Below, one piece after another: positions 4,373-62,800 of a DNA stretch of 64,000 bases. Within the stretch, counting starts at the first letter, position 1. Every line of letters starts with the position of its first letter. A model generated the notes under the pieces. That model was given only the letters and a program-made list of their open reading frames with translations. It was not told the origin of the DNA and did no database searches. This DNA comes from Cetorhinus maximus (Eukaryota), in NCBI RefSeq assembly GCF_964194155.1, contig NC_135898.1, forward strand, positions 48,360,001-48,424,000, given 5' to 3'. Position numbers and translations under genes: made by a program.

Positions 4373-4616
4373 TTAAAGCAAAAAACTGCGGATGCTGGAA
4401 ATCCAAAACAAAAATTAAAATACCTGGAAAAACTCAGCAGGTCTGGCAGTATCTGCAGAGAGGAGCACAGTTAACGTTTCGAGTCCGAATGACCCTTCAA
4501 CAGAACTTACAGAACTTACAGTTCTGTTGAAAGGTCATTCGGACTCGAAACGTTAACTGTGCTCCTCTCCGCAGATGCTGCCAGACCTGCTGAGTTTTTC
4601 CAGGTATTTTTGTTTT
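4373..4616. mobile_element. Penelope-like inverted pseudo-LTR (palindromic) insertion
   Basis: About 95-bp inverted arms (~4412-4507 and ~4520-4612) around a short spacer; 17-bp TSD tgaattgaatattgaca (4356-4372, 4617-4633). Confidence 0.8.
4519..4559 (+). ncRNA. Minimal type I hammerhead ribozyme-like motif (mirror copy on the minus strand at ~4468-4507)
   Basis: cagtt-CTGTTGA-aaggtcattcggactc-GAAAC-GTT-aactg: stem I cagtt/aactg, stem II hairpin, palindromic ACGT stem III; A6 replaced by U. Confidence 0.55.
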
Positions 4617-6332
4617 TGAATTGAATATTGACACTTGCTGACTGTGGTGGCAGATTCAAGTACTAATAGCTGAACCCATGTGTTTAATAGAAATAGGAGT
4701 AATAGTGCAACACATATTTTATGTGAATATAAGAAAATATGGAAGAAGAATGTTTGGACCATTGTCTCCTCCACATCCTGAAATGCCTGCTAAAGACATG
4801 AGATCATAATCATTTAAGTAATTTAGTAACAGTCATGGGCACAGTTTTCTTTTACAGGAATGGAGAGCCCTTGATTAGATGATTTACCCACAATTCATAG
4901 CATAAAAAGAGATATAATGGTAACCAGGTGGTGTAAGGAATTAAGTACAAAGTAATCTGACCAGAGAAATAAATAACAGCTGAAAAACATTCACAGTAAT
5001 TAAAGGGAGAAAAGGGTAATGGAATGTAATGAAAAAAAATGACTTCACCTCTGGCTTCAGATCCTCTTTTATAAATATTGCCAATTCCACAGATAATAAT
5101 GAGAATTTGTGCCAATGTTATTTCTTTGCATTCATTGTGGTAAATCTCCTTTCTGACTATTTCTCTAAAATTAAGCACTTCCAATTCATTCGGTGCCCCA
5201 AAAGAACCGCCTTTTTGGGGAAAAAATTGAGATAAGAAACTGCATTCGACAATAGGTTGTTATTTCCACATTAGGTGAGAAACTGCTTTGATCACAATGA
5301 ATAGTGACAACATAAACACCCTTAACAAGGAATGGTCTTGAAATTACACTGTGGGATATTCACGTTACCAATGCTTAATGCACTTATACCAAAATTTTCT
5401 ATCCATCCTTTTAGTAGAGGATGAAGTCCATTTATTTTAAATGGGTCAATGCCAACATCAGGAGGAATTTCAGGTGCTGGTATGCTAATAACCCATGGCT
5501 AATGTTTTTGCACTTTCACTACATACAGAAGCCTCACGTCAATTCTCACTCCATGGCTTCCAAGCTTAACAGTCCAGTAAAACTATTGCACACTGCTAAC
5601 AGTATGATGCTTAGACCAAGTCATCTAGGGCACATCACCCTATAATTGTTTCATTGTGAACCATGCACAAGTGTTTGCAATTCATCATTAATTCCGCTTA
5701 ACGTTTGTCAGTGTGAATACAGTATTTGAAGTCACATTGTTCAAAATCTGAACTGGGAGAAGTAATTGTTGCCCCTGCTGAAATTTAAAGTCAACAGCTT
5801 CCAAGCACACGTGCTTCTATTAAAGAAAAATTGTGCTTTTAGCTGTTGGCACACATCCCATTGAACACACTGACCACCAACATCTGGAAGCAAATATCAT
5901 GTCCTGTGCAGCAACAAGACAATTTCCTATGGGAACGACTTTTTTTTTAAAAAAAAAGCTTGTACTGGATCTAGAACAGAGATTGTATGCATCCAGTGAC
6001 TAAATATTTAGCCAATTGCAAATCATGAAAATTAACATTTGAGTTAGCATTTCTTTCCTCCTGGAAAAGCTGTTTCCATAAAAACATGAACCCTTTTGGG
6101 TATCTAAAGTGAGGAGAAAGTGTTCTTCAGATGATTTTATTTTAAAGCAGGTGTTCACATCAGAAATGTTATATGGCTTAGTTGGGACTCCTGAATGCCT
6201 TCAAACTATTTTTTTCAATCAGATGCCGAATGTTTAGAACAGATGATAAAAATGTTAAAATACAGTCAGACTTTAGAAGACACGCTTTAAAAAAACTGCC
6301 TGGAATTCAGGAGTACAAATACTAACAATATT

Positions 6333-7137
6333 GGGCCAAAATCCACTGTAACTGGCAAATGAACAGCAGCAACTGTTTGTTTGACTTGCCCTTAGCTGTT
6401 TAATTTCCATCCACAAGTTGGTGTAGGTAGGAAAGCCAAATGGTGCAGGACATTTGGGACCTGAGTGAACAGGGCAAGCAACTGCATATCACCTTATCTG
6501 AGCGGGTTGAGGAATCATTACTGAACAGTGCAAAATCTAAGGCAGGAATTGTCAATTAGAATAGTAAATTCAATGTTAAATCATGTACAGAAAGCAAAAT
6601 AAAGAGAGAGGAAAGATTGAATTAAGGGTGAGAGATAAGATACATAAAGAAAAAGTTAAAAAACTTTTTAAAATTTCCAGAAACACTGAAAAAATGAAGG
6701 AATGAGATACCACACTTTTAAAAGTTAAATTTTGGTGCCAGAGATGTTGCTTTGCAATCGTTAAAACTTATCACATGAATGCAAACAGAACTTAGGTTGA
6801 AATGGACAAGCCCAAACTTTCTGTGGCAAGTTTACTTCACATTTGCAATGCAAGTATAGGAACTTCAAGCCAAAATGCCATTCTCAGGAAGATAATGGTG
6901 AATGGGTAGCAACTCCTGAATTTTTTTTAACCTAACCTCACATCTGCCTTCACCTGAAGTTACTGCCTGATTTGCACATAAATAAAAGTAAGAGCCATTA
7001 GCTTCAATGATGGGCCTGAGCTTCTCTGGAGTAACAATCAGCATCAGATTGCTACTCCATGCACAATTATTTATGTTAACTTTTTTTCCCAGCCTGTCTT
7101 GCCCGACCTTCCGACTCAAGCCAAGCAAAATCCAGGC
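6333..7137. mobile_element. Old non-autonomous DNA-transposon-like repeat (Harbinger-type ends)
   Basis: Ends gggccaaaat / aaaatccaggc; internal gggacctgagtgaacagggcaagca recurs inverted at ~16138-16165. Confidence 0.5.
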
Positions 7138-7289
7138 AGTGTAGCATGTCCACTAGGCCCAGAGTCAAAGTGCAGGGAAGAATCAAAATAAACGAGGCCA
7201 AGCCCCTTTTTTATGGCACTAGCTGCCATAAACCGGGTAAACTTAAGGCCCATTGAAATTTAAGGGTCCTTGACAGACCAGGGAGAAGG

Positions 7290-8530
7290 TAAGTGTCAAA
7301 GGTAAGTGGATAGGATTTAGGGAGTGATGAGGGGGGGGTGGGAATTGGAGGTTGGGGGGCTGGATTGGAGGTTGGTGGGGTGGGGGAATCAGAGGTCCGG
7401 GGCTTGGATTCGGTCAGGCCTGGGCCTGCAGGGGGGCAGGGTGTCGGTTCTCGGCGGGGGAGGGTTGGGCCTGAGGGTTGGTGGAAGGGTGGGTGTCAGG
7501 CCTCAGAGGGGGGGAGGGTGGACATCAGGGAGGTGAGGGAAGGGTTTTAGGCCTCTATGGGGGTCAGGCCTGCAGGGGGTGGGGGCGCAGTGCCAGGCCT
7601 CAGTGTGGTCAGGTCTGCGAGGAGTGGGGGGAGGATGTAGGCCTGCGGTGCGGGGGAGTCGGGACTGCAGAGGGGGTCAGGCCTCGGTTCTGTGGAGTGG
7701 GCTCACATCTCAGAAGAGTGGGGGGAGGGTGTCAGGGCGGGGAAGGCCTCGGCAGGAGTGCTGCCTGATCTCTGGTCGGGTCACTTCTGGCCTCTGGTGG
7801 ATGGGTGGAGTGTATTGGGACTCAGGGAGGGGGTTCAGCCCTGCGGGGGGTGGGAGCGAAGATGTTCGGCCTCAGGTGTGGTTGGACCTGTGGGTGGGAT
7901 CAGGCCTCAGATGGGGGTTCGGGCCTGCGGGGTGGAGGTAGGGTGGGAGGATCTGGCCTGTGGGTGAGGGGAGGGGAGGGGAGGGTTGGACCTGCAAGGG
8001 TGCAAGTTCAGACCTCAGGGGGCTGAGTGGAGCATGTCGGGGAGGTGTCTGACCTTGCGGTGGGTCAGGTCGGGCCTGGGGTATTAATGTGAGAGGTGGG
8101 TGTTGTCCCTTGGGGTGGGTCAGGTCTGCATGGGGTGTGGAGGGCGGAGTGTGTCGGGCCGCAGGGAGGAAGGTGTCGGGCATCGATTGGGGTCAGGCCT
8201 GTGAGAGCTAGTCAGACTTTTGGGGGCTGCGGGAGAGGGTGTTGGGCCTCAGGAGGGGGACATCAGGGAGGGCCTTGTTGGGGGGTCAGGCCCTGCGGTG
8301 GGTGTTCGGTCGGGTGCTGATATTCAGGCGCACCAGTGAGGGCTGGAAGGTGGGATTGGAGTCCCGTGCGGATGTGGGGAACCCATGGGGCGAGCTGTCG
8401 GAAGGTGGGGGGAGACCCCTGGGGGTCGGGGGTGTGGGGATTGTCCAGTGGGGGTGGGTAGTCGGGAATTGTGGGGAACCTCCTGAAGGGTTGGGAGGTG
8501 GAGGGAGTCCTTTGGGGGTGGGTCTGTACA
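7290..8530 (+). repeat. G-rich degenerate minisatellite with recurrent ggtcAGGCCT cores
   Basis: Strong G skew, many G3-G7 runs, about 20 aggcct/gggcct motifs. Confidence 0.8.
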
Positions 8531-22929: not shown

Positions 22930-24729
22930 CTAGTTCTAGATTCTCCTACAAGAGGAAACATCCTCTCTACAGCCACCCTGTCAAGGCCCCTCAAACTATT
23001 ATATGTTTCAATCAAGTGCCCTGCTATAATTTCTTTAATAATAGATTCTAACATTTTCCCTACGACAGATGTTGAGCTAACTGGCCTGTAGTTTCCTGCT
23101 TTCTGTCTCCATCCCTTTTTGAGCGCAATGAATTCTAGTGCAGTGAACAGTGAAAGCATTCAGTAGCCTCAATTCAGTAACCTGACAAAGATTAAGATCA
23201 ACAGTTTCTCAGAGGGCATTTTAAAAGCTTTTGTTCAATTGCGACAAATTATATCGAATTGTTTATCAATATCCCCGGAATACAATTAGTGGCTTTTAAT
23301 GGGTCGCATACTCCCCATGTTAAGAAGTCTCTCTTCAGTAAATAACAGAATGCCAGTATCTTTCAGACTGTAAAGAACCAGAGAGCAATTGCCTCCTTAA
23401 TAAACTTAAAACAAATTCCTCAGGTTAGCATACCTCTATAATAATGAAATATGAAATAATATTAATGAAATATGAAGTACTGCACAATTGCCTCTGATCT
23501 AGTCTCATTTCGGTAAGCCAATCTCTCACCACTTTCCTCAGCTGTAATTTCAATCAAGGACATGGTTGCACAGGTTGGGGTGGGAGACAGTTTTGCCTGA
23601 AAACCTAAAGTTCAGGGTTCCCCACATGTTGTGGAGCTTTCACTCAAAGAAGGCATTGCCACCCAGAAGACAACCTGTTTGCTGGACTTGGCTTCTTGGC
23701 CATTGTCCCAGTGAGTGAACATGCAGCTGCCACTGAGAGCTTGGGGGTTCGGTCTTATCCCTGGTCCCAGGGGAGTAGTCTGAACTTGTGGGGATCCAAT
23801 CCCTGACTCATGGGGGTCAGATTGTTGAAGGTAATCTGATCTAGGTAGTGGTAATCTGATCTAGCGAACATTGATCCAAGGCAAGAGGATAAGCTTGGAT
23901 GGTTGGGGAAAACACTCCTGCTCCTCCCAGTCTATAAGCAGTGTTCTAAGAATTCTTACCTCCTTCCCAAAGCTGTTCTCACTTCCCTTCAGCTGCCTGG
24001 TTTCCTGATGCCTGGGAAACATTGCCAGCCAGGGTTAAAGCAGGTTAAACCCTGCTTTCAATGTCACTGTCTATGCCTGGTCACCAGATATATCTTCGCG
24101 CAAGCATTTTCATCTTCAATATGCCTGGATGTGCACTGTGAAGCTCTGTCAAGAGTGTCTCTCTTCCTTGCGAGGGGATGACGACTCTTAATCCCCACAA
24201 CAAGATTCCATCTTGACAACTTAACTCTGTTTTTCAGGCATGGAATGATCTCATCTCTTCAGACAACTGGTGAATTCGACCACCTTTGCAATACAAGGTC
24301 TTTGACTTTCGACAAAATTGGATCTCTGTTTGTCCAATTCCTTATTTGTTTCACATACACAGGCGAAGAGTCCAAGAAATTCATCACAAGTACAACTTCT
24401 TGTGGCACTGGAGCATGTACAATGCTGTCTGGTAACGGGAGACAGCTGAATGCATCCACATTTGCAATATGCGCCCCAGGACGGTGCATAAAGGTGTACT
24501 CATACGCAGATAATATCAAAGCCCAATGTTGAATTTTTGCTGAGGCTATTGGTGGAACACTTTATCTTCACTGAATAAACCCAACAATAATGAAATGTTG
24601 TCCATGCAGATACTAATGGAATTTCTTCACTCCAAATACCACCAACAAACCTTCCTTTTCCAGTTGGGAATAACCCTTCGCGGCTGCAGAGAGGGTTCAG
24701 GAGACATAACTGATTGGCCTTTCTGGTCT

Positions 24730-25122
24730 GATTCTTGTCTTTCCTTTTGCTGTTTGCCACAGAGTTGTGTCTTGTCCTTAATTTTGATTTCACAATCGGC
24801 CAAATTTCTCTCTGGTGAATCTTAACTTGGTTCAGTTCGGTGGTTGCGCTACCCATGGTTTCATTATCCACTCGCATCTTGAAAAGTTCCACGACTTTTC
24901 CTTCTAATGCCTCTTTTGCTTCATTCAGCTGATTCTTCAGCTCTTCAGTCTCCCTCTTGTATGTCTTGGCTTCCTCCTGAACATTGAACATTGTTGAGTC
25001 TTCTCAGCCAACTGCTTCTTCAGTTTGTTCAGAGTGGCACTAAATTCATTTTGTTTCTCTTCATGATTTTCCAGTGGAACCAACTCTGACCTGAGGGATC
25101 CTTGTATCCTGTGAAGGTCCTT
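24730..25122 (-). pseudogene. Captured coiled-coil host-gene fragment, UACA/RAI14/ANKRD24-family-like
   Basis: IQGSLRSELVPLENHEEKQNEFSATLNKLKKQLAEKTQQC/NVQEEAKTYKRETEELKNQL aligns by eye with the recalled UACA coiled coil; it occupies the position of RT. Confidence 0.6.
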
Positions 25123-25639
25123 CGATTCTTCTAAATTATTCCAAAATACACTGTCATATTCCCTTAACAGCCCAGGAATTCGTCCTGTTCTCACATGAAA
25201 TATTCCAGACCAGTTGAACTTAATTTTTTGTAACCAACCACGGCCCAAAAAATAAGGTCCTTCTCCTGTTACAATGATCACTGGAAGCTGGGCTTTCTGT
25301 TGCCTATAGGACACGGGTACTGTGGTGATGCCTTTTGCCTGTATGGACTTTCCAGTGTATGTCTTCAACTGAGCTGTTGTTCGCTCCAGATTCAGTGGCT
25401 GGATACCTTCATTTAGATATTTTAATGTGTGTTCTCCCACCACTCTGGTTGATGCTCCCGTATCTACCTCCATGACTCGAGGCTTCCCATTCACTTGAAG
25501 GGTGACAATTATTGGTTCAGTTTTTACTGCTTTGACATTGTCCAGGGAATAGATATTGGTATCGGAAGCTTCAGGTTCGGTTATGTCACTTCAATACTTT
25601 TGGTCTGCTGTCTGATGGGCTGTCTCGGTTTCACCCTAC

Positions 25640-26412
25640 ATTGCATCATAACGTGCCCCTATTAACGGCAGTAATGGCATTCTGCCTCCTCGAACCTGCA
25701 GGTTCCCAGTACATGGTTACCCCCACATTTGTAACAGATTAACTTTGGAGTCGTTGCTGAAATGCTTCCAATAAGCCTTTTCATTTTTCGAGCAGTAGAA
25801 ACTGTCTCCCGCTTCGTTTCCGTCCTTCTGGTTTTTGCACCATGCCTGGCAGTATATTCCAGCCCCAATTGAAGAACAGCGCTATGCTGCACATTCTATA
25901 AAGCCCGTGAGTCCATCGCAGCACTTTCCATGGCTAGCACTATTTCCATACTTCAAATCAATGTTAACTTCTGCAAGTAAACAGCGCTGAATGCTGTTGT
26001 CATGACCACCACAAACTAACCAATCCCGCAACATATTATTGAGTGCCTCTCCAAAATCGCAGCATTCAGTCAACTGCTTCAACTTCACTATATAAGTTGT
26101 GATGGACTCTCCCGGGGCCCTTACTCTGGAGTTAAATTTAAACTTCTGCATTATTACCAATGGCTTTGGCTGAAAATGCGTCTTCATGAGGTCTACCAAT
26201 CCGTTAAAAGACTTAGAATTGGGTATATTCAGGGCTGTCAGATTGCGGGTGAGGTTGTACGTCTTGCTACCACAGACACTCAGAAGAATTGCTTTTTGTT
26301 TCTCCTCCGTGGTAATTTTGTAAATCACGAAATAAAACCCAAAGCACTTTACATACTGGCTCCGGTCGTTAATGGACACGTCATGAGGATCAATCCTGCC
26401 AAAGAGTGACAT
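25640..26412 (-). pseudogene. gag: gag (decayed)
   Basis: MSLFGRID..KAILLSVCGSKTY..HFQPKP..KFNSRVRAPGESI..CDFG..MLRDWLVCG; CYKCGGNH..C..CHYC knuckles; frameshifts. Confidence 0.85.
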
Positions 26413-26510
26413 GACTGGTGAGTACGCTTTTCTGTTTCCCCTAAGGCTTGATGTATTCATGTTAACAGGGCGAGGTGCAGCGCCGGAGCTATTTTACCCT
26501 CATCACCAAA

Positions 26511-26720
26511 TGTAATGACTTGACGTACCGGACAGGTTTCTACTTGAAATAGATAACTTTATTACAGAGAGCTTTTAGAAGCTACATGCTTGAACCAGAT
26601 CCACGACCTGAAAGCTCTATCCCCCTGGATTACCTGCACTTAGGACTCATTTGTCAAAAACAATCACATGACCCCTAATAGGCAGTAGGAAAGGTTATAC
26701 CTTCAAGCGCTATAATAACG
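26511..26720 (-). repeat. 5' LTR of Gypsy A
   Basis: Starts tgtaatg immediately beside the PBS and ends ataacg; tttatt (AATAAA on the minus strand). Confidence 0.7.
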
Positions 26721-28586: not shown

Positions 28587-30144
28587 ATGGAGCCTAGTAA
28601 ATTAGCTGTGTGCCTCATGAATTACAGAGAGCAAAGACGTCAGAGAAGAGAGCAATGATGGTGCCTGGCTGGGCAGAGGGGGGAGCAGCACCCTCAAGAA
28701 GGGGCAGCTGGGGCCTCCACACATGCCTCTGAACAGCCACAGCGAGCCGTCATTCGTCAACGGCTGACTAGACCCAGGGTCTATAGACATCACCTTCATT
28801 CCTGCAGATGACCGATAACTAGTGTTTGCCGAAGACTGCGCATGTCTAGGGAACCGGTCGGTCACATTGTCAGCTACTGCATTTGGTGCCATGGACACAT
28901 GGAGGGCATCCACTGCCAGTGGCTGTGAAAGTGACCGCGGGGTTCAATTTCTACGCCAGTGGCTTCTTTCAGGGCTCCACAGGTGACTTCTGTGGGATAT
29001 CACAAACCTCCACCCACAAGTGCATCCATGAGATCACGGATGCCATCTACGGGAGGGCACACAACTTTGTTCATTTTGCCCAGAACCAGGACAGCCAGAA
29101 TGCAAGAGCGATTGGATTTGCCCAGGTCTCGGGTTTCCCACAGGTGCAGCGTACGATCGATTGCACTCACGTGGCACTCAGATCTCCAGAACAACACATG
29201 CTCAACTATGTCAATCGCAAGGGATCCCATTTGCAGGATGTGCTGCTGGTGTGTGACCTCCAGAAACATATCCTGTAGGTGTGCGCACGGTTTCCAGGGA
29301 GTGTCCATGATGCCTACATTCTCAGTCGGTTACAGATCCCTGGAATCCTCCAGGGTCCACAGTAGCTGCAGGGTTGGCTCCTTGGGGACAAGGGCTACCC
29401 GCCGAGGATGTGGCTGATGACACCCGTGCAATGGCCTCAGACTGCAGCAGAGCGACGGTATAACAAGGCTCATGTTGCAGCTCACAACTTGGTAGAGCAG
29501 ACCATCGGGATGCTGAAGATGAGTTTCCGGCGGCTGGACCGGTCTGGTGGAGCCCTGCAATACAGTCCAAAGAGGGTGTTACATGTCGTCATCGCCTGCT
29601 CCGCCCTTTACAACCTGGCACTGCAACGGGGAGAGGAGCTGGCTGAGGAGGAGATGGAGGAGGTCTCCTCTGATGAGGAGGATGTCAACAGTGATGAGAG
29701 TGAGGAGGATCCCGAAGGCAACGATGACAGCGATGAGGCCCTCTGTTGAATCCAGTGCCCTTGGTTTTTTGGGGCTAAAGGATCCAGGTTGCACGCTTGT
29801 TTCAGGGTGACCAAGTACAGAGGCAGAGTACATCAGGAGATCGTTGTTAGAATGAACATGTGCTGTTTATTTACAAACTAAACTCTGCAGCTATACTTGT
29901 GTGCTCACAACATAAAACTCTGTCTTCACTCATCGGTGACTAACTCAAGACCCTCCACAAAGAGGTAACCCACGCTACATTGCAATTGGATATTAAGATC
30001 ATGTGATTTTACATTACAATACTTGTCTTAAAGGTGCATTACATGTCAGATTACTTCATCCCTCACACTGGCCAGATGAGGCAGGTGCACTCGGGAGGCC
30101 CTCAAAGCCACTAGATTTGTGGAGGATGATGATAAGATGCAGTG
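28587..30144 (+). pseudogene. HARBI1-like DDE transposase (stops, frameshifts, LTR insertion)
   Basis: FYASGFFQ..CGISQ..GFPQVQRTIDCTHVAL..YVNRKG..PGSVHD..LLGDKGYP..RYNKAH..VEQTIGMLK..ACSALYNLA; acidic tail; preceded by a 5'UTR intron with acceptor at 28567-28568. Confidence 0.92.
29744..30058 (-). mobile_element. Solo LTR (Gypsy)
   Basis: TG..CA; 6-bp TSD gccctc/tccctc; shares agatcatgtgat and cttaaaggt.cattaca with the LTR at 54626. Confidence 0.7.
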
Positions 30145-30848: not shown

Positions 30849-31422
30849 CTAATTCTTCTTAATTTTCCTAACCCTGCCGCTACACCTTGGTTCTAGGTAT
30901 TCCTCCACCGGTCTGTGACCTCTCCCTATTGTTGTGTGCCAGCTTGTCCTGCATGAATAGGCATGGAGAGAGTGTAAGCAGGACACCTGCCGGGCCAGAT
31001 GATAAGTATGCCTGGCATGTGTGGGTGGTGAATGGTCCCATGGACGAGATGAGGACAGTGAAGGTGTATATGAGAGATTGAATGGTGATGTCCCTTGCAC
31101 TGGCAGTGAGTGAGGGCCCTGTGGATGTGTGATGGGTTTGTAAGTGTGTGAGGTGAAAGTGATGAGAAGAGTGACTTACCCTGGCAGAACGGAGGAGATC
31201 ATTCATCCTCTTGTGGCACTAGGTGGCTGTCCTCTTTTGCAGGATATTGGCACTGGCCACCACTGCCTTGGCCTCCCAAGCTGGATTAGTGATGCTGCTG
31301 CCCCTCCTGAGGCCAGAGCAGGGGTAGAGGACATCACGACGGGCTTCCACTGTGTCCAAAAGGTGCTCGACGGATGTGTCACTGAAGTGAAGTGCTGCAG
31401 TCTTTTTGCCTTTTGGGGCCAT
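30849..31422 (-). pseudogene. Harbinger Myb/SANT-like DNA-binding protein gene, two exons, 3' part deleted
   Basis: MAPKGKK..FSDTSVEHLLDTVEARRDVLYP..AWE..KRMNDLLRSAR, GT(31179)..AG(30949) intron, DKLAHNNRERSQTGGG. Confidence 0.85.
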
Positions 31423-33089
31423 CCAGTCTCCCATGCGGCAGTCCTGGGCTGGAAGCACTGAGAGGTGTGTGCATGGCTGCACTTTAAATGTAGTGCCCGG
31501 CGTGATGAAGCAGCAAGATGATGGCGAATGAGAGCCTGCCCGCCATGGAAACGGCATGTTTCCCGGGAATGCATAATTAATGCGGCGGGTTTGGGACGAT
31601 ATGGCGTGAGAAGCCGCCATTGCGGCCGGCGGGTAAAATGCCGTTTTCCCCGCCCACGGCCTCACAGTGCAAATCTGGGCCGATTCCGCCCACTGTGTGC
31701 AGTTTTGGTCTCCTTATTTAAATAAGGATATAAATGCGTTGGAGGCAGTTCAGAGGAGGTTTACTAGATTTGTACCTGGAATGAGTGGGTTGTCTTATGA
31801 GGAAAGGTTGGACACTGGAGTTTAGAAGGTTGAGGAGTGACTTGATTGAAGTATCTAAGATCCTGGATGGTCTTGACAAAATGGACGTGGAAAGGATGTT
31901 CTCTCTTGTGGATGAGTCCAGAACTAGTGGGCACTGTTTTAAAAGTAGGCGTTGCCCTTTTAGGACAGAGATGAGGAAAAATTTTTTCTCTCAGAGGGTT
32001 GTACGACTTTGGAACTCTCTGCCTCAGAAGGCGGTGGAGGTGGGGGTCATTGAACATTTTTAAGGCAGAGACAGATAGATTCTTGTTAGGCAGGGGAATC
32101 AGGAGTAGATGGGAATGTGGAATTTGAAACACAAGCAGACCAGCCATGACCTTGATGAACGGCGGGGCAGGCTCAAGGGGCCAAATGGCCTACTTCTGCT
32201 CCTGTTTCATATGTTTGCATGTTAACATGGAGGCAAGTCCTTCACCTCCTATTGACTCCACTATGCTGCCTTATTTCTGCTGAGCAGGAGATATTAAAAT
32301 TTCTTTGTCTTTTTCGATTCACCATAGACATAACAACAATAGATGCATTTGTTTAACAGAAACACAGATGCAGCTTTAAAGGCAAAAGTAATAAAGTAAG
32401 TTTTAATTTGCAGATTTTCATTAGGCTGCTGCCTAAAACAATGTAATCACAGTGTGGCCTGTTGGGACAACTAACATATTTCGCTGTTCACAGGTGAGTT
32501 AAAGCATGCCAAGTTAGGCAAAGTTTCTTATTAACAGGCATAATTATAACATGGCTTTCAAGCAGAAGTAATTAAAATGATCACATCTACAGTGATTTCC
32601 AGAATTAAACCATGAGCAGGGAAGTGGTGTCTATTCAATTTGCACAGAGAGCCTTAGGTGACTTTATTATCACCTGAGATGTGGAGTTTCTAAGGAACAG
32701 CTGGTCTGGAAGAGGAGGATGAAAGCTTGTGATTAAATGAGAATGCATCATCAATTGCACCAAATATTTCCTGATCAAACCTTTTGAACTTTCATTGTTG
32801 AAGCACAGCAACTTTCCAGGCTAATGTGGATAGCACCAAGAGTGGATGCAAAGGACAAAGTACATTTGTGTGTGTTCAGCTGATGTTGGGGCAAAAGATA
32901 ATGTAAACTGCATCTATAAACTTTGTACTCCACATGCACATTATGAAGACTGTGGCAATACCAAGACACCAGAATTTGTTAATAGATCACAATCAAGTGT
33001 GAATTCATCCGCTTATTAATAAGCATATTCTCTCACTCTGTTTCAGTGTTATTGGAGGGAAAGTAAAAGGCAAATGAGGGAAAGGTGCG

Positions 33090-36005: not shown

Positions 36006-37340
36006 GGACAGAATGGTCCCAGATTTGCACCAGGTGCAGTCGCAGGCGGGAAAAAGGACGTTTTACCTGCCGGCCGCAATGGTGGCTTTTCTCATCGTAT
36101 TGTCCCATTCCTGCCTTATTAATTCTGCAGCCACAGGAAACACGCTGTCTCCCTGGCGGGCGGCCTCTGATTTGCCCACCATGCCGTTACCTCGCCACTT
36201 CTTCACACAGGGCACCGTATTTAAACTGCAGCCGCGCACACACTTCTCAATGCTCACAGCCCAGGAGGGCTCCGGTGAAGACATGGCCCCAAAAGCCAAG
36301 AAGAGTGCAGCCCCCTCCTCCCTCCCCCCCAATTCAGTGACACATCCCTGGGACACCTGGATGCTGTGGAGACCCACTGCAATGTCCTCTATCCCCGGTC
36401 TGGCCACAAGAGGCCCATCAATCTCACCACTCCAGCTTGGGAGGCAGTGGCAGAGGTGGTCAGTGCCAATGCTGCACACAAGAGGTTGGCCATCCAGTAC
36501 AGAAAATAGATGAATTATCTCATCCGTGCCACCAGGGTAAGTTAACCATTTTATCACTCTAAACTCACACACTCACAAGCCCATCACACACTAGCGTCTC
36601 ACTCACTGCCAGCTCAAGGGACATCGCCACTCACTCTCTCACACACACCCTCACATCTCCATCTGGCCTCATCTCCTCCGCAAACTGCCTCCTCAGCCCT
36701 CACCATCTTGAGGTCGCTTACACAGATCAATATGTGCCCCTCACACACACCCTGGGATAATCCCTTTCCCCAGTACAGCCCACACCCTGCATACTCTTCC
36801 CTTGCCTGAGGCCACTTCTCCCCCTTCCCCAAACAAGCCCCAGCCCTGCAGCCGTTGAAAAGCCTTACGGCTGATCCAGTAGGTAGAGACCTGCCCATGA
36901 GCCCCTCCTAAAAGTGATGTGGTGCTGCCTGCGAAGCCTGGCGCTGATGACCACAAGTGCTGCCCGAATCAAGGTAGGCAAACAAACCTCGAAGTCCTGA
37001 GCCAAGTGCAGCTCGCCAAGTGCACGTCACTTATGTACAGTTGTGAAACACGTCGGCGTGATTGTGCCCGGATGATCCAGTGTGGGTGGAGGTGGTGGGG
37101 GTGGGGGGTGGGGGGTTGATTCCAGCGAGCAAAGCTTATAATTAGATGCATATGTATTAAAATGAGGTTCCTAACGTGCAGTGGCGGGAAACGTGGCCCG
37201 TCATTGACAGGCAGAGCGGACAATCACAAAGTGGTTTCAGGATGGCCTGAAACTGATTTTTGGTCTTCTCGCCATTTTGTGCCCCCCCCACCCCCAGCCG
37301 CCATGATGCCCGATGCCAACGGGGCCAGAAAATTCCGGCC
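36006..37340. mobile_element. Harbinger family A internal-deletion derivative
   Basis: Ends ggacagaat / aattccggcc; TSD AAG; keeps Myb exon 1 (MAPKAKK..KMNYLIRATR|gtaag) and the nuclease promoter end; inverted relative to 27438-31691. Confidence 0.88.
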
Positions 37341-43800: not shown

Positions 43801-44412
43801 TTTCACTAATTGTGCAGTTGACTTCACGTACCAAATATTATATAACACTGAATTCCTGTCATTCCCACTATTTACTCAACATTGCTCATCAAATTCCAAA
43901 CTATGGAATGGCAGAGGAGGGATAAAGAAAAAAGCTCCACCTATTCCCTGGGATAACTCATTTTAGCTTGTCCGAAGCAAGCATGTGATGTAGAAAGTAT
44001 AACATCAGTACATTTGAGATATGGTTTAGAGCCCAAGAATAGGATGCACAACAACTGAGAATAGACAATCAGGAGTCATCTTCTGAGGACCCTCAGAAGG
44101 AATATAATCCATGGACATAATTTTGAGTCCCCAGTGGGTGGGCGCGATCGGTGGGTCCAGGAGCAGCTGGGAAAGTTGCGACCGCCCGCGATCAGCCCCC
44201 AACCGCAATTTCACGCTGGCAGGTCAATTAAGGCCCACCGAGCGTGAACGGCGGCTCCTCAATGGTCGGGAAGGGGTGGACGAGGGTGGGGGCCTGTTGG
44301 CCGCCGGGTCCAATGGCGACCTGGCGGCTGGTTTAAAAGCAGCACAGTCAGGCTCTGGAAGGCTGCCAGCGATGAAGACATCTTTGGTGTTGTCAACATG
44401 AGATTATAAAGC

Positions 44413-46265
44413 ATGGATTCAAATGTGGCTGCAGCTGCCAGACAGGAGGGCAGATCGGGTGGGCACTCAGCTCCCCTGTTTTCTGATGGAGGAGGGGGCT
44501 GCCAGGAGGATCACCCTTGTTCCCAGGGACGGAAGGAGGAGGCCACCGCACCTTACAAAAAGAGCTTGGGAGGAGGTGTCAGCCGAGGTCAGCAGCCATG
44601 ATGTGGTGCGGCGCACCTGGGCCCAGGTCCGCAAGAGGTTTAATGACCTGCTGCACTGGGGAAGAATGAGTACCGTGTTGGCATGGATCAGTGTGTTGAA
44701 GCGTTAAGGTCTGGCCATCCTCCCGTGGGGCTCAGGGGTGTTAGAGTCTGGGTGCTAATTGTCAATGACGCCGGAGCTGGCCAAGAGGGTGAGCCCTGGC
44801 TGCTTGGACTGAGTGCCTTGCGGCTCGAGTGCCACGACTCAGATGTGCCCTGTAAGGTGTTCCTCAGGTGGGTTGGCCAAGCTGCAATGGCGCTGCAGGT
44901 AGAGAGGGGACTAATTAATGCGCCTCTATCCTTTCAGGAGAAGACGGCCCATAACATCATTGAACAGTCGCAGAGCAGCGGTGGCCCTGCAAACCTCTTA
45001 ATCCTAACCATATACGAGCAGGACACCTTGGAGTTGGAGAGGCGCTCGGTCAACTGGTCGTGGAGAGGCTCGGGTGTCACATGAAGGTAAGAGTGCAGTG
45101 CACAGAGGTAAGGACTTCGGATGGTGCAAACATTCTTGTTTAGTCTCATAATTTTTGGGAGCCTCAAAACAGCAGGCCCCATTGATCATTGAAAAACAAT
45201 GGCACCATGAGGCAGATCTCCATTGTCTCACCAGGGTGCCTGACATGCACAGTGACAGTGTGATGACTTAAACTAATAATATGTCATTTTTCTCCCTTAG
45301 GTTTGCCACCACACAGGACCCCGAAGAGCCACCCGTGACGCTAGAGGACGGTCAGGCTTCACATGCACCTGTGTCACACCCGCTCTCTGAACCAGGCACC
45401 AGCACAAATACCAACACCTCGGTGAGCGTTAAATCTTCGGCTAGAATGTCGGAGCACAGTGGTGAGGGAACTTCACATTCACTTGAGGTGCAGGCAGAGG
45501 CAGAGAGTGTCCAGGGAACTGACAGTCGGAGGACTGCTGGGGACCAGGATGATGCTCAGTCAAAGGCGGATGTTGAGCCTCTGGAGTCATCCATTAAGCA
45601 GCTGATGCTGGATGTTCAGCGAGATGTGGGGGAGGATCTGGCAGAGATCCATGAGGGAATGCGTGCCAAGGTCTCTGTTGTGGAGGAGTCCATGTGGAGC
45701 ATCAGCACTATGTTGACTTTCATGGCCAAGCGCACTGCCTCCTCCATTGAGAAAGTGACAACTCTCATGGAGAAGCCGCTCCAGGAACAGAATCAGGAGC
45801 TCCTGGGGTGTGATCGGATCTGCAAGCTCCTCACACAGGCTCTGACCTCAGGTGGTCAGTGTCTGTGTGGGAGATGAATGAGACACCCAGTATTCAAGCT
45901 AGGTGTCCTTCCATTAATGGTGAGCAAGGAGGTCCAGAGCGACCTCACATTGGCACATGTGATGGCAGCCTGCCATCTATGCGGGCTCCTCTCAGGGTGC
46001 TCTGGATGATGGCAGCAGCTCCTCCGCCCCTCTGCCAGTGACCGTGGCATCTGATGAGGCTGCGGTAACTGGGGAGATGCCAGACGTGGCACTGGCCACT
46101 CCCTCCCAGGCGGGGCCAACATAGGCTCCACTGGTCAGGGGACGACTGCCAAGGTCATCACGGCCAACAAGACAGCAGAGTCAGCAGGCTGCCTGCAATG
46201 CCAGTGCCAGCAAGGGGGAGGCACCAAGACGTAATACCCACGAAACGTAAGTTTAAGGCATTATG
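44413..46265 (+). pseudogene. Harbinger Myb/SANT-like gene, three exons
   Basis: KRAWEEVSAEVSS..RRTWAQVRKRFNDL; exon 2 from 44938 EKTAHN..GGPA; donor 45087, acceptor 45299-45300; S/T-rich linker, coiled coil, basic C-terminus. Confidence 0.85.
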
Positions 46266-47101: not shown

Positions 47102-48062
47102 GGGGATATTGTAGTTCTCCCCCTGAATGGTCCAGGCATCGGAAGCGAATCTTCAGAAGACCTATGGTTCTCTCTGTCACTGCCCTTGTGGAGGCGTGAC
47201 TCCTATTATAACGCTGCTCTGCATCTGTTCTTGGGCGGCGGAGAGGTGTCATATCCACCTCTTCAATGGATAGCCCTTGTCACCCAGCAGCCATCCATCC
47301 AGTTTGCCTGGAGCACTGATGAGCCTCGGCACCTGAGAGTGTCTGAGGATATAAGCGTCTTGGGAGCTGCCAGGGTACCTTGGGCAGACTTGTAGGATCA
47401 GCATCCTGTGATCAAACGCTATCTGCACGTTCATGGAGTGGAAGCCCTTCCTGTTGACGAAGACACCGGGCTCACCCGCTGGCGCCTTGATGGCCACATG
47501 TGTACAGTCTATTGCACCCTGGACACGGGGGAAGCCAGCAATGGCCGCGAAGCCTCTGGCTCGCTGTATCTGGCTGGCCTCATCCACACGGAAATGAATG
47601 AAAGTCAATACCCGCCTGAACAGAGCTTCTGTCACCATCTTGATGCAACTGTGGACAGCTGATTGAGAGACTTCACACAGAACCCCCACTGACCCCTGGA
47701 AAGATTCGTATGCACGGAAGTTGAGGGTCACTGTAACCTCCAGAGCCACTGGCATGGGGTGTCCACCCATACAGTCAGAGGTGATCTCAGGCCCAATGAT
47801 CAGACAAATGGAGGTCACTGTCTCCCTTGAGAGGCAGAGCCTCCTTCGGCATTGCATCTCACATATTGAGGTAGCTGCATCGCTGCCTGTAAACCCTGGC
47901 AGCAGGATAGTGGTGTCTTCTGCAGCCCCTAACGCCTTGGACTGCCAGCTGGCCCTGCGCCCCTTGTGCCTGCGCCTCTCCGCCCACAGGTCACTTCCTC
48001 GAAAGCTGCACTGGGACACCTGGCCTCCTCTCATTTCTGCCCCTCTCTTCCTCCTCAGAGGA

Positions 48063-48311
48063 GTTTTTTCTTTACTCGTTCATGGGATGTGGGCTTTGCT
48101 GGCTCAGCCAGCATTTATTGCCCATCCCCAAGTGCCCTTGTTCAGAGGATATTTAAGAGTCAATCACATTGCTGTTGGTCTGGAGTCACATGTAGGCCGA
48201 CTAGGTAAAGGTGGCAGATTTCCTTTTCTAATGGACATTAGTGAGCCAGATGGGTTTTCATGGCAATCGGCAATGGTTTCACGGTCACCATTAGACTTTT
48301 AATTCCAGATT
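48063..48311 (-). mobile_element. SINE (5'-truncated) with CR1-family-1 tail
   Basis: Reverse-complement homology to 58640-58880. Confidence 0.82.
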
Positions 48312-54967: not shown

Positions 54968-57900
54968 TTACAAGTTCAGTCTTTCAGGTGGTTTCCTGGT
55001 ACGTGTGGAACGTCGCAGCTCTACAACTTCAGATTCTTTGTCAGGAACTTCCTTTTCTGGAGTTGCCTGAACATCAGGTGCTGCGGTGGGCACCTGCAGT
55101 TCTGTATCCTCAACTCTTACAGGAACATCAGACATGTCAGTCCTGGGTTGAATATCCTCAACAGGAAACGCAGACCTGGTCATGGTCACTGGTGGAACCA
55201 TATCTTGATGATTTGTTTCTCTCTTCCTTAAATTGTCCACATGTTTATGGATGATCCGGCCTTCCACCTCTACGTGGTAAAATAGAGGTCCAGTCACCGC
55301 AGTCATTTCACCCAGTAACCACTTTGGTCCTTCCCTGAAGTTCTTCACGTATACCGGCTCTCCCACGGTAAACTTCCTCTCACGATTATGCCAGTCGTGT
55401 CTAGTTTTCTGGCTCTTTTCCACGTTCCCCTCTACATTCGGCATTATTAAGCTCAATCTCGTCCTGAGACAGCGTTTCAACAATAACTCCGCAGTGTGAC
55501 ACCTGTTGTTGTGTGAGGAGTGGTCCTGTAATGAAAAAGAAAGCGTGCTGGCTTGGTTGCTAAGGAATCGCCAGTTAGCTTTTTCATGCCTCCCTTGAAC
55601 GTTTGAACCCTCCTTTCAGCAAGTCTGTTTGAGGAAGGGTGGTACGGTGCAGTTTTCACATGAGAGATACCGTTGAAGCTGATAAACTGTTGAGCTCAGA
55701 ACTCGTAAATATTGTGCCATCAGCAGAAACAATTACTTCTGGTAGTCCGTGAGTGGCAAAGCTCTGACATATTTTCTCAATTGTAGCAGCCAACATTGGT
55801 GACTTCACCTCATATACGCCCAACCAGTTTGAATGGACATCGACAATGAGCAGAAACATTGTTCCCAGGAGAGGTCCAGCATAGTCAATGTGTAACCATA
55901 CCCAGGGCCTACCTGGCCACTCTCATGGGTGTAATGGAGCTGTCACTGGCAACTTTTGCAGGTGCTAACAATGCACACATGATAGCTGCGTGTTATGGTC
56001 TTCATTTGGGAAATTCCTGGATGGGTAACGTGTAGTTCAATTAAGTGGCTCCCTTCCCATTGGAGGAACTATCACTCGTGCTCCCCACAATAAGATGCTA
56101 TCCTGGCTGGTTATTTCATGTCTTCTGTTGAAGTCAGGTTTCATTTAATCAGATACGGGCTCCTGTGACCAACCATGTAGCACTTGTTCTTGTACTTGAG
56201 ATAGGACCGGGTCCCGCCTTGTCCAGTCTCTGATCAGTCGAGCACATATCGGCGAGGAATCTAAGAAATTTAACAGTAAAGTAAGTTCCTGTGGAACTGG
56301 GATGTGCTCATCATTTTCTTGTAAAGGCAAACGACTAAGGGCATCAGCGTTTGTAATTTAATTGCCAGGCCTATGTACGAAAGTGTATTCGTATGCTGCC
56401 AGAATTAAAGCCCATCATTATATTCTTGCTGAGGTTATGGGTGGTATAACCTTGTCCTCACTAAACAATCCTAGAAATGGTTTATGGTCTGAAACTATTG
56501 CAAAACGATGGCCATGTACATACTGGTGAAATTTCTTGACATCAAAGATGGTGGATAGGCCTTTTTCTATCTGCGAGTATCCCTTTTCTCCTGTGGTGAG
56601 CATTCTTGATACGTAACCTATTGGCTGTTCCGTGCCATCATGCAATGAGAGAGCACTACTCCCACTCCGTAGGGATTTGTGTCACATGTCAGCACCAATT
56701 CTTTCATCTGGCCATAATGCACTAATAGGTTGGATGAGTACAACAATTGTTTCATCTTTATGAAAGCTTGTTTCCGGGGCACCTCCCAAGACCGACGTTT
56801 TTTTTTGATTAGAGAATGCAGGAGGGGCCAGCACTATAGACAAATTGGGTAAGAAATGCCCTTAATAGTTTGTCATTCCTAGGAATGATCTGAGCTCTGA
56901 GGCGTTCTTTGGCGCAGGTGCCTCTCTTATGGCTCTCACTTTCTCCTCAACCGGGTGGAGGCCCTGCGAATCTACCCAGTGACCCAAATAGATTACCTCC
57001 CTCACTTGGAATGTACTTTTTTTTTTAAAATGCATCCCAGCATGCAAGAAACATTTTAAGACTTCTTCTAAGTTTGCCAAATGCTCTTTTTCAGAGAATC
57101 CTGTCACCAATACATTGTCTAAATAGACTTCAACCTGGGGCAGTCCTGCAGTAAGCTTTCCATTGTTCTCTGCAAGATGGCACAAGTGGAGGAGACACCA
57201 AAAGGCAATTGTGTATATTGGCACAACCCTTTGTGCGTATTAATTGTGACAAATTGCCAGGAGGCATTATCCAACTCTAATTGTTGATAAGCATGACTCA
57301 TGTCAAGCTTTGTGTACATTGTACCTCCCGCCAGCTTGGCATTCAGGTCTTTGATTTTTGGAATGGGGTGCCTGTCTAGTTCAGCTACTTTATTAACCTT
57401 CAGTTTGTAGTCTCCACAAATTCGGACGCTTTGGTTGGGTTTAAGGGCGGGGACTATGGCTGCTGCCCATTCTGAGAATTGAACAGGTTGTATAACACCC
57501 AGTTCCTCTAGTCTGTTCAGTTCAATGTCGACTTTTTCTCACAGGCCATATGGCACCGGTCTCACCTTCATGAAGCGAGGGGTTGTTTCTGGATCCACAT
57601 AAATCTTGGCCTGCAGGCCCTGGATTTTCCTCAGTCCATCCCTGAAGACAGTGGTGTACTTTCTAAGTAGCTCTGGTAGCCAACTTGTTCTCAACTGGAA
57701 AATTTCAGACCATTCTAACTTAATCTACTTTAACCAGGAGGCTTGGCCCTTCACCTGCTACCACCATCAAGGGTATCTTTGTCAATTGGCTTCCATAATA
57801 GACAGTTACTCTGCTTATGTCCTTTACTTGAATGTCTTCACCCGTATCTGTTTTTAGCTTGGCATCTGTTTCTTCTAAACTTAATTGATCTTCCCTGATA

Positions 57901-58030
57901 TTGCTGTGAGATTATCCAGTACCCTGTCATTCATTATTCAAATATCTGAAGGTATGTTCCCCAATTACTGTAGTGGAAGCTCCCGTGTCCACTTCCATTC
58001 TAACAGGTTTGCCATTTACTTTCACTGTAA
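54968..58030 (-). pseudogene. pol: pol (protease-RT-RNase H-integrase), frameshifted
   Basis: MEVDTGAS; KLDMSHAYQQ..LPFGVSS; YLDN (YLDD); SFLGMTNY; YSQIEK; SDHKP; IDYAGP; APYHPSSNRLAER; ends RRSTRTRKPPERLNL. Confidence 0.92.
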
Positions 58031-58526
58031 CAAATATTGGTTCCGTCTTTCCAACTTTCAGATTAAACAACGAGTAAGTGTCTGAATTCATTGTTTCAGG
58101 CTCTTCTACATTGTAGATTTCTTTGGGCTTCTCCTTTTGTTTATAAGCCTGCTTGAATCTTTCCTTGTACTGCCTCATCACATCAATTTCCAGGAGAATC
58201 GTAGCATTCGATTTTTTTAAACTGCCAATTGCTAAAAGACAGCTCGTTTCCACCTCTATTAAAATTATCTTTTGGTTTCGCTACTAAGTTATTTTTCTTT
58301 ATTCTTCGGCTAGCGGGGGCTGTTTCCCACTTCTTGGCAGAGTCTCGCTTTTTCGCGCCTCTTTCAGCTGATGTTTTCCCGCCCGATGTGGAGGACGGAG
58401 CCATTTTGCACACCCTGTCTTGCTTTTGAATCTCTCAATGCACTTCTCGTGGCCAGCGCTATCTCTAGCACCTTCTTGAAACCCAGATTCACTTCGGACA
58501 ATAATCTTTTCTGAGTAGAGGGGTAA

Positions 58527-61421: not shown

Positions 61422-62800
61422 ATGGCTGCCATAGGGAGGGAACATGCTGCCCCCAAATTGAGTGACGCCTCCATCGAGCTCCTACTGGACACAGTGGAGG
61501 CCCACCTCGATGACACCATCGCGATGTCCCCTACCCCCACTCAAGGCAAAGACCGGCAAGCAAGATCACCAATCCAGCATTGGAAGCAGTGGCAGTGATG
61601 GTCAGCACCAATGCCCTGCAAAAAAGGACAGCCATCCACTGCAAGAAGAGGATGAATGGTCTCATCCATTCCAGCAGGGTAAATCACTCTTCAACTCACA
61701 CACTCACAAACCCATCACACATCCACAGGGATCTCATACCTCAAGGGACAACACCACTAACTCTCACACACATCCTCACATCCCCATCAGGCTCATATCC
61801 TCTGGAGCTCACATCCTCATCCTGTCCATGGCTCCACCCACCACATAAACATTCCACGCAGTGCCATGTGTCCTGCTCACACTCTTGCCAACTGTTTTCA
61901 TGCAGGAGAAGCCTGCTCATAACGGCAGGGAGAGGTCCCAGACCGGGGGGGTGGAGCGGCCCACATTAGACTCCTCACTCACCTTGAGGAAGGAGTATGC
62001 CATCATGCTGACTGGTGAAGACGTGGACCATGCCAACAGCAACGGTGAGGTCGGTGGCGAACACCCTCATGAAGATCCTGCATCACACCATCCCTCTCTC
62101 AACGCAACTGTCTCGCCCCTGCTGCCATGCACTAATTATCTCTATTTCGGTTTACAAGGAGCTCTGCCAAGCAACCGACACCCTCAGCCAGCCAGTCCCT
62201 CAGCTCCATCCAGGTCCTTGCCTCTAGCCAAGAGGAGACCTCCTCCATTGAAGAGCGGGAAATAAGTAGCTTGGAAAACCAGCCACAGCACTTACCCACA
62301 CCCTCCACCAGCACAGAGACACACACCTCAGTGGGACCTAGTTCTAGAGCAGGCTTGGGTTCACAAATTGGTGGTCACCGCATGACACGTGTCCGCAGCA
62401 GGAGGAGGCAGAATCAGCGGAGCTCCCTGGCAATCAGAGGACTGCTGGGGAACAGGCATCTGTGAGGTCTGAGTCAGATGATAAGCCTCTGGATTCGGCC
62501 TTCCAACTCATCCTGGAGAGTCAGCAGAAGACCTGGGAACATCACGCAAAGCTGTTGGAAGCCCTCAGCAGAGTGGCACACAAGTTGGAGGAGTAGGTCC
62601 ACCTGCTGTCTGATGAAGTGGTGCCCACATGTGTGTGTTTGGAATTCTCCATGGGGAGGATGGCAGATGCCATGGAGACCCTGGTCCAGCAGAAAGTGGA
62701 GATGCGTGCAAACCTGCACTCCATCGTAGGAGCCATAGGTGAGTTCCTGCAGTGACAACGTGAGGGGTAAACAGGGCAACTCGATGCCCCTTCAGGTGCT
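61422..62800 (+). pseudogene. Harbinger Myb/SANT-like gene (decayed)
   Basis: LEAVAVMVSTNALQKRTAIHCKKRMNGLIHSSR|GT(61679)..AG(61905)|EKPAHNGRERSQTGG; downstream coiled-coil exon. Confidence 0.8.

What the first reader, a model, noticed from the sequence alone, without database searches (positions are those of the whole stretch)
24730..25122. Gypsy retrotransposon whose RT is replaced by a captured host coiled-coil segment (UACA-like), in frame with the protease
Seen: element A runs LTR-PBS-gag-protease. Exactly where the sister element B continues into RT (B: ..VFRDGLRKIQGLQAKIYVDP.., ~57610), A switches to about 390 bp of K/E/Q/L-rich heptad sequence, then resumes pol at RNase H (RPISYVS..KGYSQLEKEG, ~24730). 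About 1 kb of RT is missing. ORF 24937-25494 reads uninterrupted from the protease into the insert, although a 1-nt deletion relative to the pol frame seems to lie just before the junction. From recall of the human protein, the insert (IQGSLRSELVPLENHEEKQNEFSATLNKLKKQLAEKTQQ..QEEAKTYKRETEELK) aligns essentially gap-free with the UACA coiled coil (IQECIKVKYAPIVSFEECERKFKATEKELKDQLSEQTQK..EEEVKKNKQENDKLK). Inference: template switching onto a co-packaged host mRNA made a non-autonomous transducing element encoding a Gag-PR-coiled-coil chimera, reminiscent of retroviral oncogene capture.
Basis: partly seen in the sequence, partly recalled or inferred. Interest (0 to 1): 0.85.

Follow-up and report, generated by a model that had tools for sequence, protein, structure and literature searches.

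The report
Gypsy element carrying second-hand host coiled-coil
This is a dead copy of an old, many-copy shark jumping-gene family in which the reverse-transcriptase gene is replaced by scraps of the host UACA gene, likely picked up second-hand from another jumping-gene family that had strung pieces of three host genes (UACA, ninein, TPR) into one reading frame.

Summary
The insert is real and UACA-derived (81% and 76% nucleotide identity to two parts of the host's giant UACA exon), and it replaces about 1 kb of RT. It is not a one-off: at least 34 dispersed copies (family A; LTRs, 5-bp TSDs, LTR identity 76-88%) share both junctions, and the RT-bearing parent family is in the genome. But it was not taken straight from UACA mRNA. 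The same 150-codon UACA deletion, a 92-nt linker and the start of a ninein piece occur in a second LTR family (X, at least 110 copies, unrelated LTRs) whose truncated Gag is followed by UACA, ninein and intron-less TPR pieces; all 14 recurrent X junctions keep the frame. X-type chimeras also occur in catshark. So A most likely got a cassette from X by template switching. All sampled copies are broken. An open frame was probably selected; amino-acid constraint is weak and no function is shown. Closest known: LTR-mediated retrocopies and maize Bs1; new are the copy number, three coiled-coil donors in frame with Gag, and cassette transfer between families.

The parts
26511..26714 (-). 5' LTR of family A (~205 nt)
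   Evidence: matches both LTRs of full-length copy L055; family LTRs TG..CA, 5-bp TSDs in other copies
26497..26510 (-). primer-binding site (TGG.. directly after the LTR); tRNA not identified
   Evidence: sequence; same position in A copies
25521..26412 (-). gag with zinc knuckle, broken in this copy (frameshifts near 25947 and 25587, stops)
   Evidence: (Retrotrans_gag E 0.022)
25124..25520 (-). aspartic protease and start of the PR-RT linker, open and in frame with the insert
   Evidence: PF13975 E 6.3e-6; 85-88% to parent copies
24933..25123 (-). UACA piece 1 (host exon nt 1665-1856, aa ~962-1026); private frameshift near 24979
   Evidence: 155/192 nt identical to host exon
24831..24941 (-). 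UACA piece 2 (host exon nt 2298-2408, aa ~1173-1210), joined to piece 1 at a 9-nt repeat (24941-24933)
   Evidence: 84/111 nt; same junction in 27 of 60 X copies
24737..24830 (-). ~92-nt linker shared with family X, source unknown; the family-wide frame offset between cargo and RH-INT lies here
24720..24736 (-). first ~17 nt of X's ninein piece; its last 7 nt are the microhomology with the parent's RNase H
24049..24726 (-). RNase H C-terminal part and start of integrase; element truncated at 24049 (rest of INT and 3' LTR absent from the window)

Best explanation
The window holds a decayed copy of a non-autonomous Gypsy family (A) whose RT is replaced by a ~400-nt host-derived coiled-coil cassette that was likely copied, by two template switches during reverse transcription, from the RNA of a second LTR family (X) rather than from host mRNA. 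Shown: X is LTR-PBS-truncated Gag-UACA-linker-ninein-TPR-LTR with no pol found; its TPR part lacks introns, so mRNA was the original template; its cargo was shortened at short (4-20 nt) overlaps that keep the frame; A carries X's own UACA deletion, linker and ninein start; A spread by retrotransposition (dispersed copies, 5-bp TSDs). Inferred: co-packaging of X RNA with the Gypsy parent; RT supplied in trans by the parent; later crossovers moved the cassette onto at least two parent subfamilies. At family level Gag-PR-cargo is one frame that stops ~20 codons into RNase H DNA, with RH-INT in another frame. The cargo most likely acted as a tolerated, frame-keeping tail (selection for a long translatable Gag frame, for example for RNA stability or cis-packaging) more than as a specific mimic of the host proteins; purine-rich coiled-coil mRNAs would be captured repeatedly because they share short in-frame repeats.
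For: Host matches. TPR exon-exon junctions crossed inside one alignment in 53 of 60 X copies, six different junctions. U1856-U2298 junction in 27 of 60 X copies and in A; linker and ninein start shared. A and X LTRs show no match at E<0.01. Of 29 other protease hits 22 continue into RT, 6 into the insert, 1 interrupted. 3' junction: 7-nt microhomology (Ser-Glu in both ninein piece and RNase H); 5' junction imperfect but in frame. A cargo forms one clade, 100/100 (17 A vs 26 X rows), while 4 of 17 (gag+PR) and 4 of 16 (RH+INT) A rows sit inside a parent subfamily. 14 of 14 distinct recurrent X junctions in frame against a microhomology null of 0.55-0.71 each; rare junctions 29 of 47 in frame. 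No fixed stop in 639 cargo codon columns except one CpG-decay column, 4.0 expected if neutral. Donor pieces are 38-44% A, 64-70% purine.
Against: Tree is unrooted and A is sister to, not nested in, the sampled X copies, so the exact donor subfamily is not in hand; direction X to A rests on structure. X's autonomous helper was not found. The A insert shows some amino-acid constraint (odds ratio 0.37, p 0.009), which a pure filler would not need. RH and INT in A also show synonymous-biased shared variants, part of them A-specific, which is odd for an untranslated frame and is only partly explained by crossovers with parents. The linker's source is unknown.
Confidence: 0.75

Rival explanations
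1. Same origin, but the coiled coil was a selected functional module: fused to Gag (X) or Gag-PR (A) it would oligomerise particles or steer them to the centrosome or nuclear pore, using stalks taken from ninein, TPR and UACA, giving the RT-less elements an advantage; this is why it was kept, reshuffled and passed between families.
For: Three independent donors are all long coiled-coil proteins; frame kept at 14 of 14 junctions; no fixed stops; A insert odds ratio 0.37, shifted frames 1.03 and 2.19; transitions in X shared vs rare p 0.022; cassette on two parent backgrounds; an earlier unchecked scan note describes a shark element carrying CLIP1 coiled coil.
Against: Stratified test on 110 X copies: odds ratios 0.95, 0.88, 0.64, none significant; A cargo p 0.53 on 18 copies and p 0.18 at the higher frequency cut; cargo is freely deleted and reordered among X variants; microhomology alone makes most joins in frame.
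Confidence: 0.2
2. Direct capture of host UACA mRNA by the Gypsy parent, with X arising separately.
For: Insert is 76-81% identical to the host exon; A cargo is its own clade.
Against: A shares with X an identical 150-codon deletion, a non-UACA linker and a ninein start; at 50 UACA residues conserved in host and two outgroups 4 are changed alike in A and X; X carries the longer, less deleted forms.
Confidence: 0.03
3. DNA-level event (gene conversion or repair-templated insertion between an integrated X copy and an integrated Gypsy copy) made the founder, which was then amplified.
For: Microhomology junctions can also arise in DNA repair; nothing at the A junctions proves an RNA step.
Against: Replacement (not insertion) bounded by short in-frame similarities is the template-switch signature (Tan et al. 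2016, PMC5131818); both partners are LTR elements; TPR part of X needed RNA.
Confidence: 0.07

Closest known systems
LTR-mediated retrocopies of animals (Tan et al. 2016, PMC5131818; abstract, passages and Discussion read)
   Same: Part of the element's internal ORFs replaced by partial mRNA; short similarities at switch points; several parental genes combined; further rounds as non-autonomous elements.
   Different: Their cases are young, low-copy loci. Here: 34 and 110 verified copies (thousands of first-look candidates), old, shared with catshark, three coiled-coil donors in frame with Gag, and a cassette passed from one LTR family to an unrelated one.
Maize Bs1 (seen only as described in PMC5131818 Discussion and passages of PMC13317346; primary paper not held)
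   Same: LTR element carrying pieces of three host genes forming a hybrid ORF; copies share switch points.
   Different: Bs1 has 1-5 copies, one donor out of frame, and is transcribed and translated; here copy number is far higher, all donors are in frame and all are coiled coils, and every sampled copy is broken.
Non-autonomous LTR elements that keep only Gag (TR-GAG; definition recalled, papers seen in search listing only)
   Same: X keeps LTRs, PBS, PPT and a Gag-like start, no pol found.
   Different: X's Gag is cut to its N-terminal part and extended by host cargo; A keeps gag, PR, RH and INT and lacks only RT.
Acutely transforming retroviruses with v-onc (recalled)
   Same: Replication-defective, helper-dependent, Gag fused to host sequence by template switching.
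   Different: Gypsy retrotransposon without env; cargo has no catalytic or signalling domain; no evidence of an effect on the host.

Membership tests
Ty3/Gypsy LTR retrotransposon (non-autonomous derivative) | TG..CA LTRs, PBS, PPT, TSD | tested here: met
   15 of 20 A copies with both LTRs; perfect 5-bp TSD in 3, one mismatch in 4; this copy has only the 5' LTR
Ty3/Gypsy LTR retrotransposon (non-autonomous derivative) | order gag-PR-RT-RH-INT | tested here: met
   parent copies PR-RT-RH in 22 of 29 protease hits; A colinear except RT
Ty3/Gypsy LTR retrotransposon (non-autonomous derivative) | RT present (autonomy) | tested here: not met
   4008 vs 4605 majority-held columns; RT replaced
LTR-mediated retrocopy (Tan et al. 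2016) | host sequence replaces part of internal ORFs, inside LTRs | tested here: met
LTR-mediated retrocopy (Tan et al. 2016) | intron loss showing an mRNA template | tested here: met
   for TPR in X (53 of 60 copies); not testable for the window insert, whose UACA pieces lie within one host exon
LTR-mediated retrocopy (Tan et al. 2016) | microsimilarity at switch points | tested here: met
   9 nt UACA-UACA, 7 nt ninein-RH, imperfect at the 5' junction; modal overlaps of 2-24 nt at most X junctions; no simulation of chance was run for the A junctions
LTR-mediated retrocopy (Tan et al. 2016) | direct capture from host mRNA at this element | tested here: not met
   cassette shares X-specific deletion, linker and ninein start
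LTR-mediated retrocopy (Tan et al. 2016) | transcription from the LTR | not testable with these tools
   no RNA holder listed
Bs1-type functional chimeric gene | intact hybrid ORF that is translated | tested here: not met
   0 of 18 A copies and not the window copy have a stop-free PR-to-cargo frame; sample is a small part of the family
TR-GAG-like element (family X) | Gag-like ORF between LTRs, no pol | tested here: inconclusive
   no Gag Pfam hit; atlas neighbours are Retrotrans_gag clusters at 0.90-0.95; no pol seen in the copies read
v-onc transducing retrovirus | env and infectious spread; cargo with growth effect | tested here: not met
   A is 4.0 kb with INT running to near the 3' LTR, no room for env; effect on host not testable

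The most novel reading that the evidence does not exclude
A shark LTR lineage serially harvested coiled-coil stalks from nuclear-basket and centrosome proteins (TPR, ninein, UACA) into a selected Gag-fused module that helped RT-less elements outcompete their helpers, and this module travelled as a cassette between unrelated Gypsy families for over a hundred million years: a selfish element building a synthetic scaffold protein from host parts.
Probability: 0.2. Interest if true: 0.85.

Novelty: new variant of a known kind. Interest (0 to 1): 0.62.

Why it matters
It is a large natural record of LTR-driven exon shuffling in a vertebrate: three host genes stitched in frame, trimmed step by step, amplified to hundreds or thousands of copies and handed to a second family. 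It shows recombination between unrelated LTR families, makes testable why coiled-coil mRNAs are captured repeatedly (sequence bias or function), and warns that such copies contaminate shark gene models and may be a small-RNA source against essential genes.

Tried and rejected
Linker searched in the genome: 30 of 30 fetched hits were X copies; atlas gave nothing above 0.85; protein representatives gave only ninein and catshark X copies. PDB: only generic coiled coils, E>0.08. Pfam on the window insert: generic coiled coils only. No RNA holder listed for the stretch; run X20 is only guessed to be RNA. Raw N/S contrast between singletons (about 4) and shared variants (1.0-2.6) looked like strong selection but shrank after control for mutation class. 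No canonical slippery heptamer seen by eye in the overlap of the two frames. Element B as parent: rejected. Literature: six searches for a published description listed none that describes these families in title or abstract; Repbase/Dfam could not be searched. Folding and complex prediction not run: a long coiled coil would be uninformative.

Full report
Setting. The window is G000:C21:48360001-48424000 of a 4.0-Gb genome. Its UACA exon is 95% identical to the Carcharodon protein, so the host is most likely a lamniform shark.

The observation. On the minus strand lie a 5' LTR (26714-26511), PBS, gag, protease, an insert (25123 to about 24720), RNase H and the start of integrase; the element is cut off at 24049 and the rest is not in the window. 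A natural copy with an open insert frame (L003) hit three proteins among 766 candidates, all shark UACA, in two separate blocks. The host exon was found (L031); the window insert matches it at nt 1665-1856 (155/192) and 2298-2408 (84/111), the two blocks overlapping in a 9-nt repeat, so 150 codons are skipped. The last ~110 nt are not UACA. This copy is dead: indels near 25947, 25587, 24979, 24818, 24584 and 24559 against columns held by most copies. There is no indel between protease and junction (348 columns in both A and parent).

Family A. The insert with both junctions matched 39 other places at 86-89% (40 scored of 3313 first-look candidates; a lower bound). Twenty were fetched whole: 15 have both ~210-nt LTRs, 76-88% alike; 3 have perfect 5-bp TSDs and 4 differ by one letter; length about 4.0 kb. 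So the cassette was amplified by retrotransposition long ago. A search with the protease alone gave 29 other loci: 22 run on into RT, 6 into the insert, 1 is interrupted. The RT-bearing parent is 85-88% identical; element B in the window is a more distant family. Counted column by column over 18 of the 20 copies, gag, protease and cargo form one frame of about 600 codons that ends about 20 codons into RNase H DNA (stop in 14 of 18); RH-INT lies in another frame; the other stop columns show a CpG-decay pattern. The offset lies in the linker and is seen in all 34 aligned copies. No sampled copy (0 of 18) is stop-free from protease to cargo end. Contigs of run X3, another organism, cover this same locus, both junctions included, at flank-like depth and few differences: the insertion is older than that split and is no misassembly.

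Family X, the likely donor. The UACA search also returned many repeats with longer UACA pieces that do not match A's flanks. They are LTR elements of about 3-4.5 kb when uninterrupted (27 of 60 with an LTR pair, 74-91% alike) whose LTRs do not match A's. After a Gag-like N-terminal piece (atlas neighbours Retrotrans_gag; no Gag Pfam hit) come UACA nt 859-2409 with various deletions, a 92-nt linker, ninein (five shark ninein hits, 57-67%; host exon at C19) and TPR (PF25481 above cut-off; host gene at C18). In 53 of 60 copies at least one TPR exon-exon junction lies inside a single alignment, six junctions in all: the template was spliced mRNA. Of 30 loci found by the Gag piece alone, 27 carry such cargo within 1.5 kb; 110 distinct X copies were held in the end. 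A's insert equals X's UACA 1665-1856, 2298-2409, linker and the first ~17 nt of ninein. The UACA deletion is in 27 of 60 X copies. At the 3' end the ninein piece and the parent's RNase H share 7 nt in the same Ser-Glu frame; the 5' similarity is imperfect but in frame, and A there has X's derived residues rather than the host's. A's cargo is one clade against 26 X copies (17 of 34 A copies used, unrooted), but its flanks are not: 4 of 17 (gag+PR) and 4 of 16 (RH+INT) A rows fall inside a parent subfamily, so the cassette moved among parent backgrounds.

Age. Four Scyliorhinus hypothetical proteins are X-type UACA-linker-ninein(-TPR) chimeras. At 28 UACA residues where host and Carcharodon differ from Heterodontus and Heptranchias, X has the outgroup state in 18, the lamniform state in 8, another in 2. 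Capture therefore likely predates the lamniform-carcharhiniform split.

Was the cargo frame selected? For: the 21 junction rows reduce to 14 distinct recurrent junctions, all in frame by majority (one row, U1864-U2290 in 3 copies, read out of frame; I treat it as an alignment extension of U1856-U2298 and did not realign it). Exact 6-10-nt repeats among the donors are in frame 55-71% of the time, giving about 0.005-0.009 for 14 of 14 at the 8-10-nt rates; rare junctions are in frame 29 of 47, as the null expects. No fixed stop in 639 codon columns except one CpG column, 4.0 expected (P 0.019 for none, 0.094 for at most one). A's insert: odds ratio 0.37 for common non-synonymous variants (17 S, 18 N; p 0.009), shifted frames 1.03 and 2.19. 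Against: the same stratified test on 110 X copies gave 0.95, 0.88 and 0.64, none significant; A cargo p 0.53 on 18 copies and 0.18 at a higher cut; host-versus-element dN/dS of 0.18-0.35 includes the host's own branch and proves nothing. Reading: the frame was probably kept; the residues mattered little. Unexplained: RH and INT in A also show synonymous-biased shared variants, 26 S to 34 N even among A-specific ones, although out of frame with Gag; crossovers with unsampled parent subfamilies may explain it, translation by an unknown route is not excluded.

Mechanism. Shown: mRNA origin of TPR, stepwise in-frame trimming, shared cassette, replacement of RT, amplification. Inferred: template switching in particles that held both RNAs, as modelled by Tan et al. 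2016 (PMC5131818; abstract, passages and Discussion read), RT in trans from the parent, selection for a long open Gag frame. That ninein is centrosomal and UACA perinuclear or cytoskeletal is recalled; 'nuclear basket' is in the TPR hit's name.

Known and new. It works like an LTR-mediated multi-gene retrocopy (Bs1 in maize: three donors, 1-5 copies, per PMC5131818 and passages of PMC13317346). It is not a direct retrocopy of UACA, not an intact chimeric gene, and not a v-onc virus. Six paper searches (listings only) showed no description of these families; repeat libraries and supplements were not searchable or not read, so an existing unannotated consensus is possible. Verdict: real, new variant of a known kind, interest 0.62.

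Noticed in passing
L071-L090, L169-L238 (family X): Modular variants: UACA 2331-2409 and linker placed before UACA 925-1932; UACA joined directly to ninein or TPR; very short forms; at least two LTR types carry the cargo.
   Followed up: partly
P0006: A predicted shark CLCA1-like protein starts with ~100 residues of X-type cargo (UACA, ninein, TPR pieces): probably a gene model that took in an element copy, or exonisation.
   Followed up: no
P0012, P0013, P0014, P0016: Scyliorhinus torazame 'hypothetical proteins' are X copies, not genes of their own.
   Followed up: partly
window 54968-58280 (-): Element B: broken Gypsy with PR, RT (PF00078), RH, INT; a different family from A (~60% aa).
   Followed up: partly
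window 28850-29749 (+) and 47249-48079 (-): Broken ORFs that look like PIF/Harbinger transposases (recalled motifs, not tested), with Myb-like ORFs at about 31144-31713, 36063-36572, 44402-44707 and 61462-61969.
   Followed up: no
family A, RH-INT (window 24726-24049): Synonymous-biased variation in a frame that is cut off from the Gag frame in all copies.
   Followed up: partly
L074 3' of UACA; window 24830-24737: 92-nt linker and a ~50-codon piece before UACA in X have no known source; CLIP1 was tested and not supported.
   Followed up: yes
L087 oriented 6300-7900: An X copy sits inside another Gypsy element with Gag, PR and RT remnants; could be a relative of X's helper.
   Followed up: no
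window 4401-4626: 107-nt inverted repeat, 93% complementary, 12 nt apart, made of two SINE-like copies.
   Followed up: no
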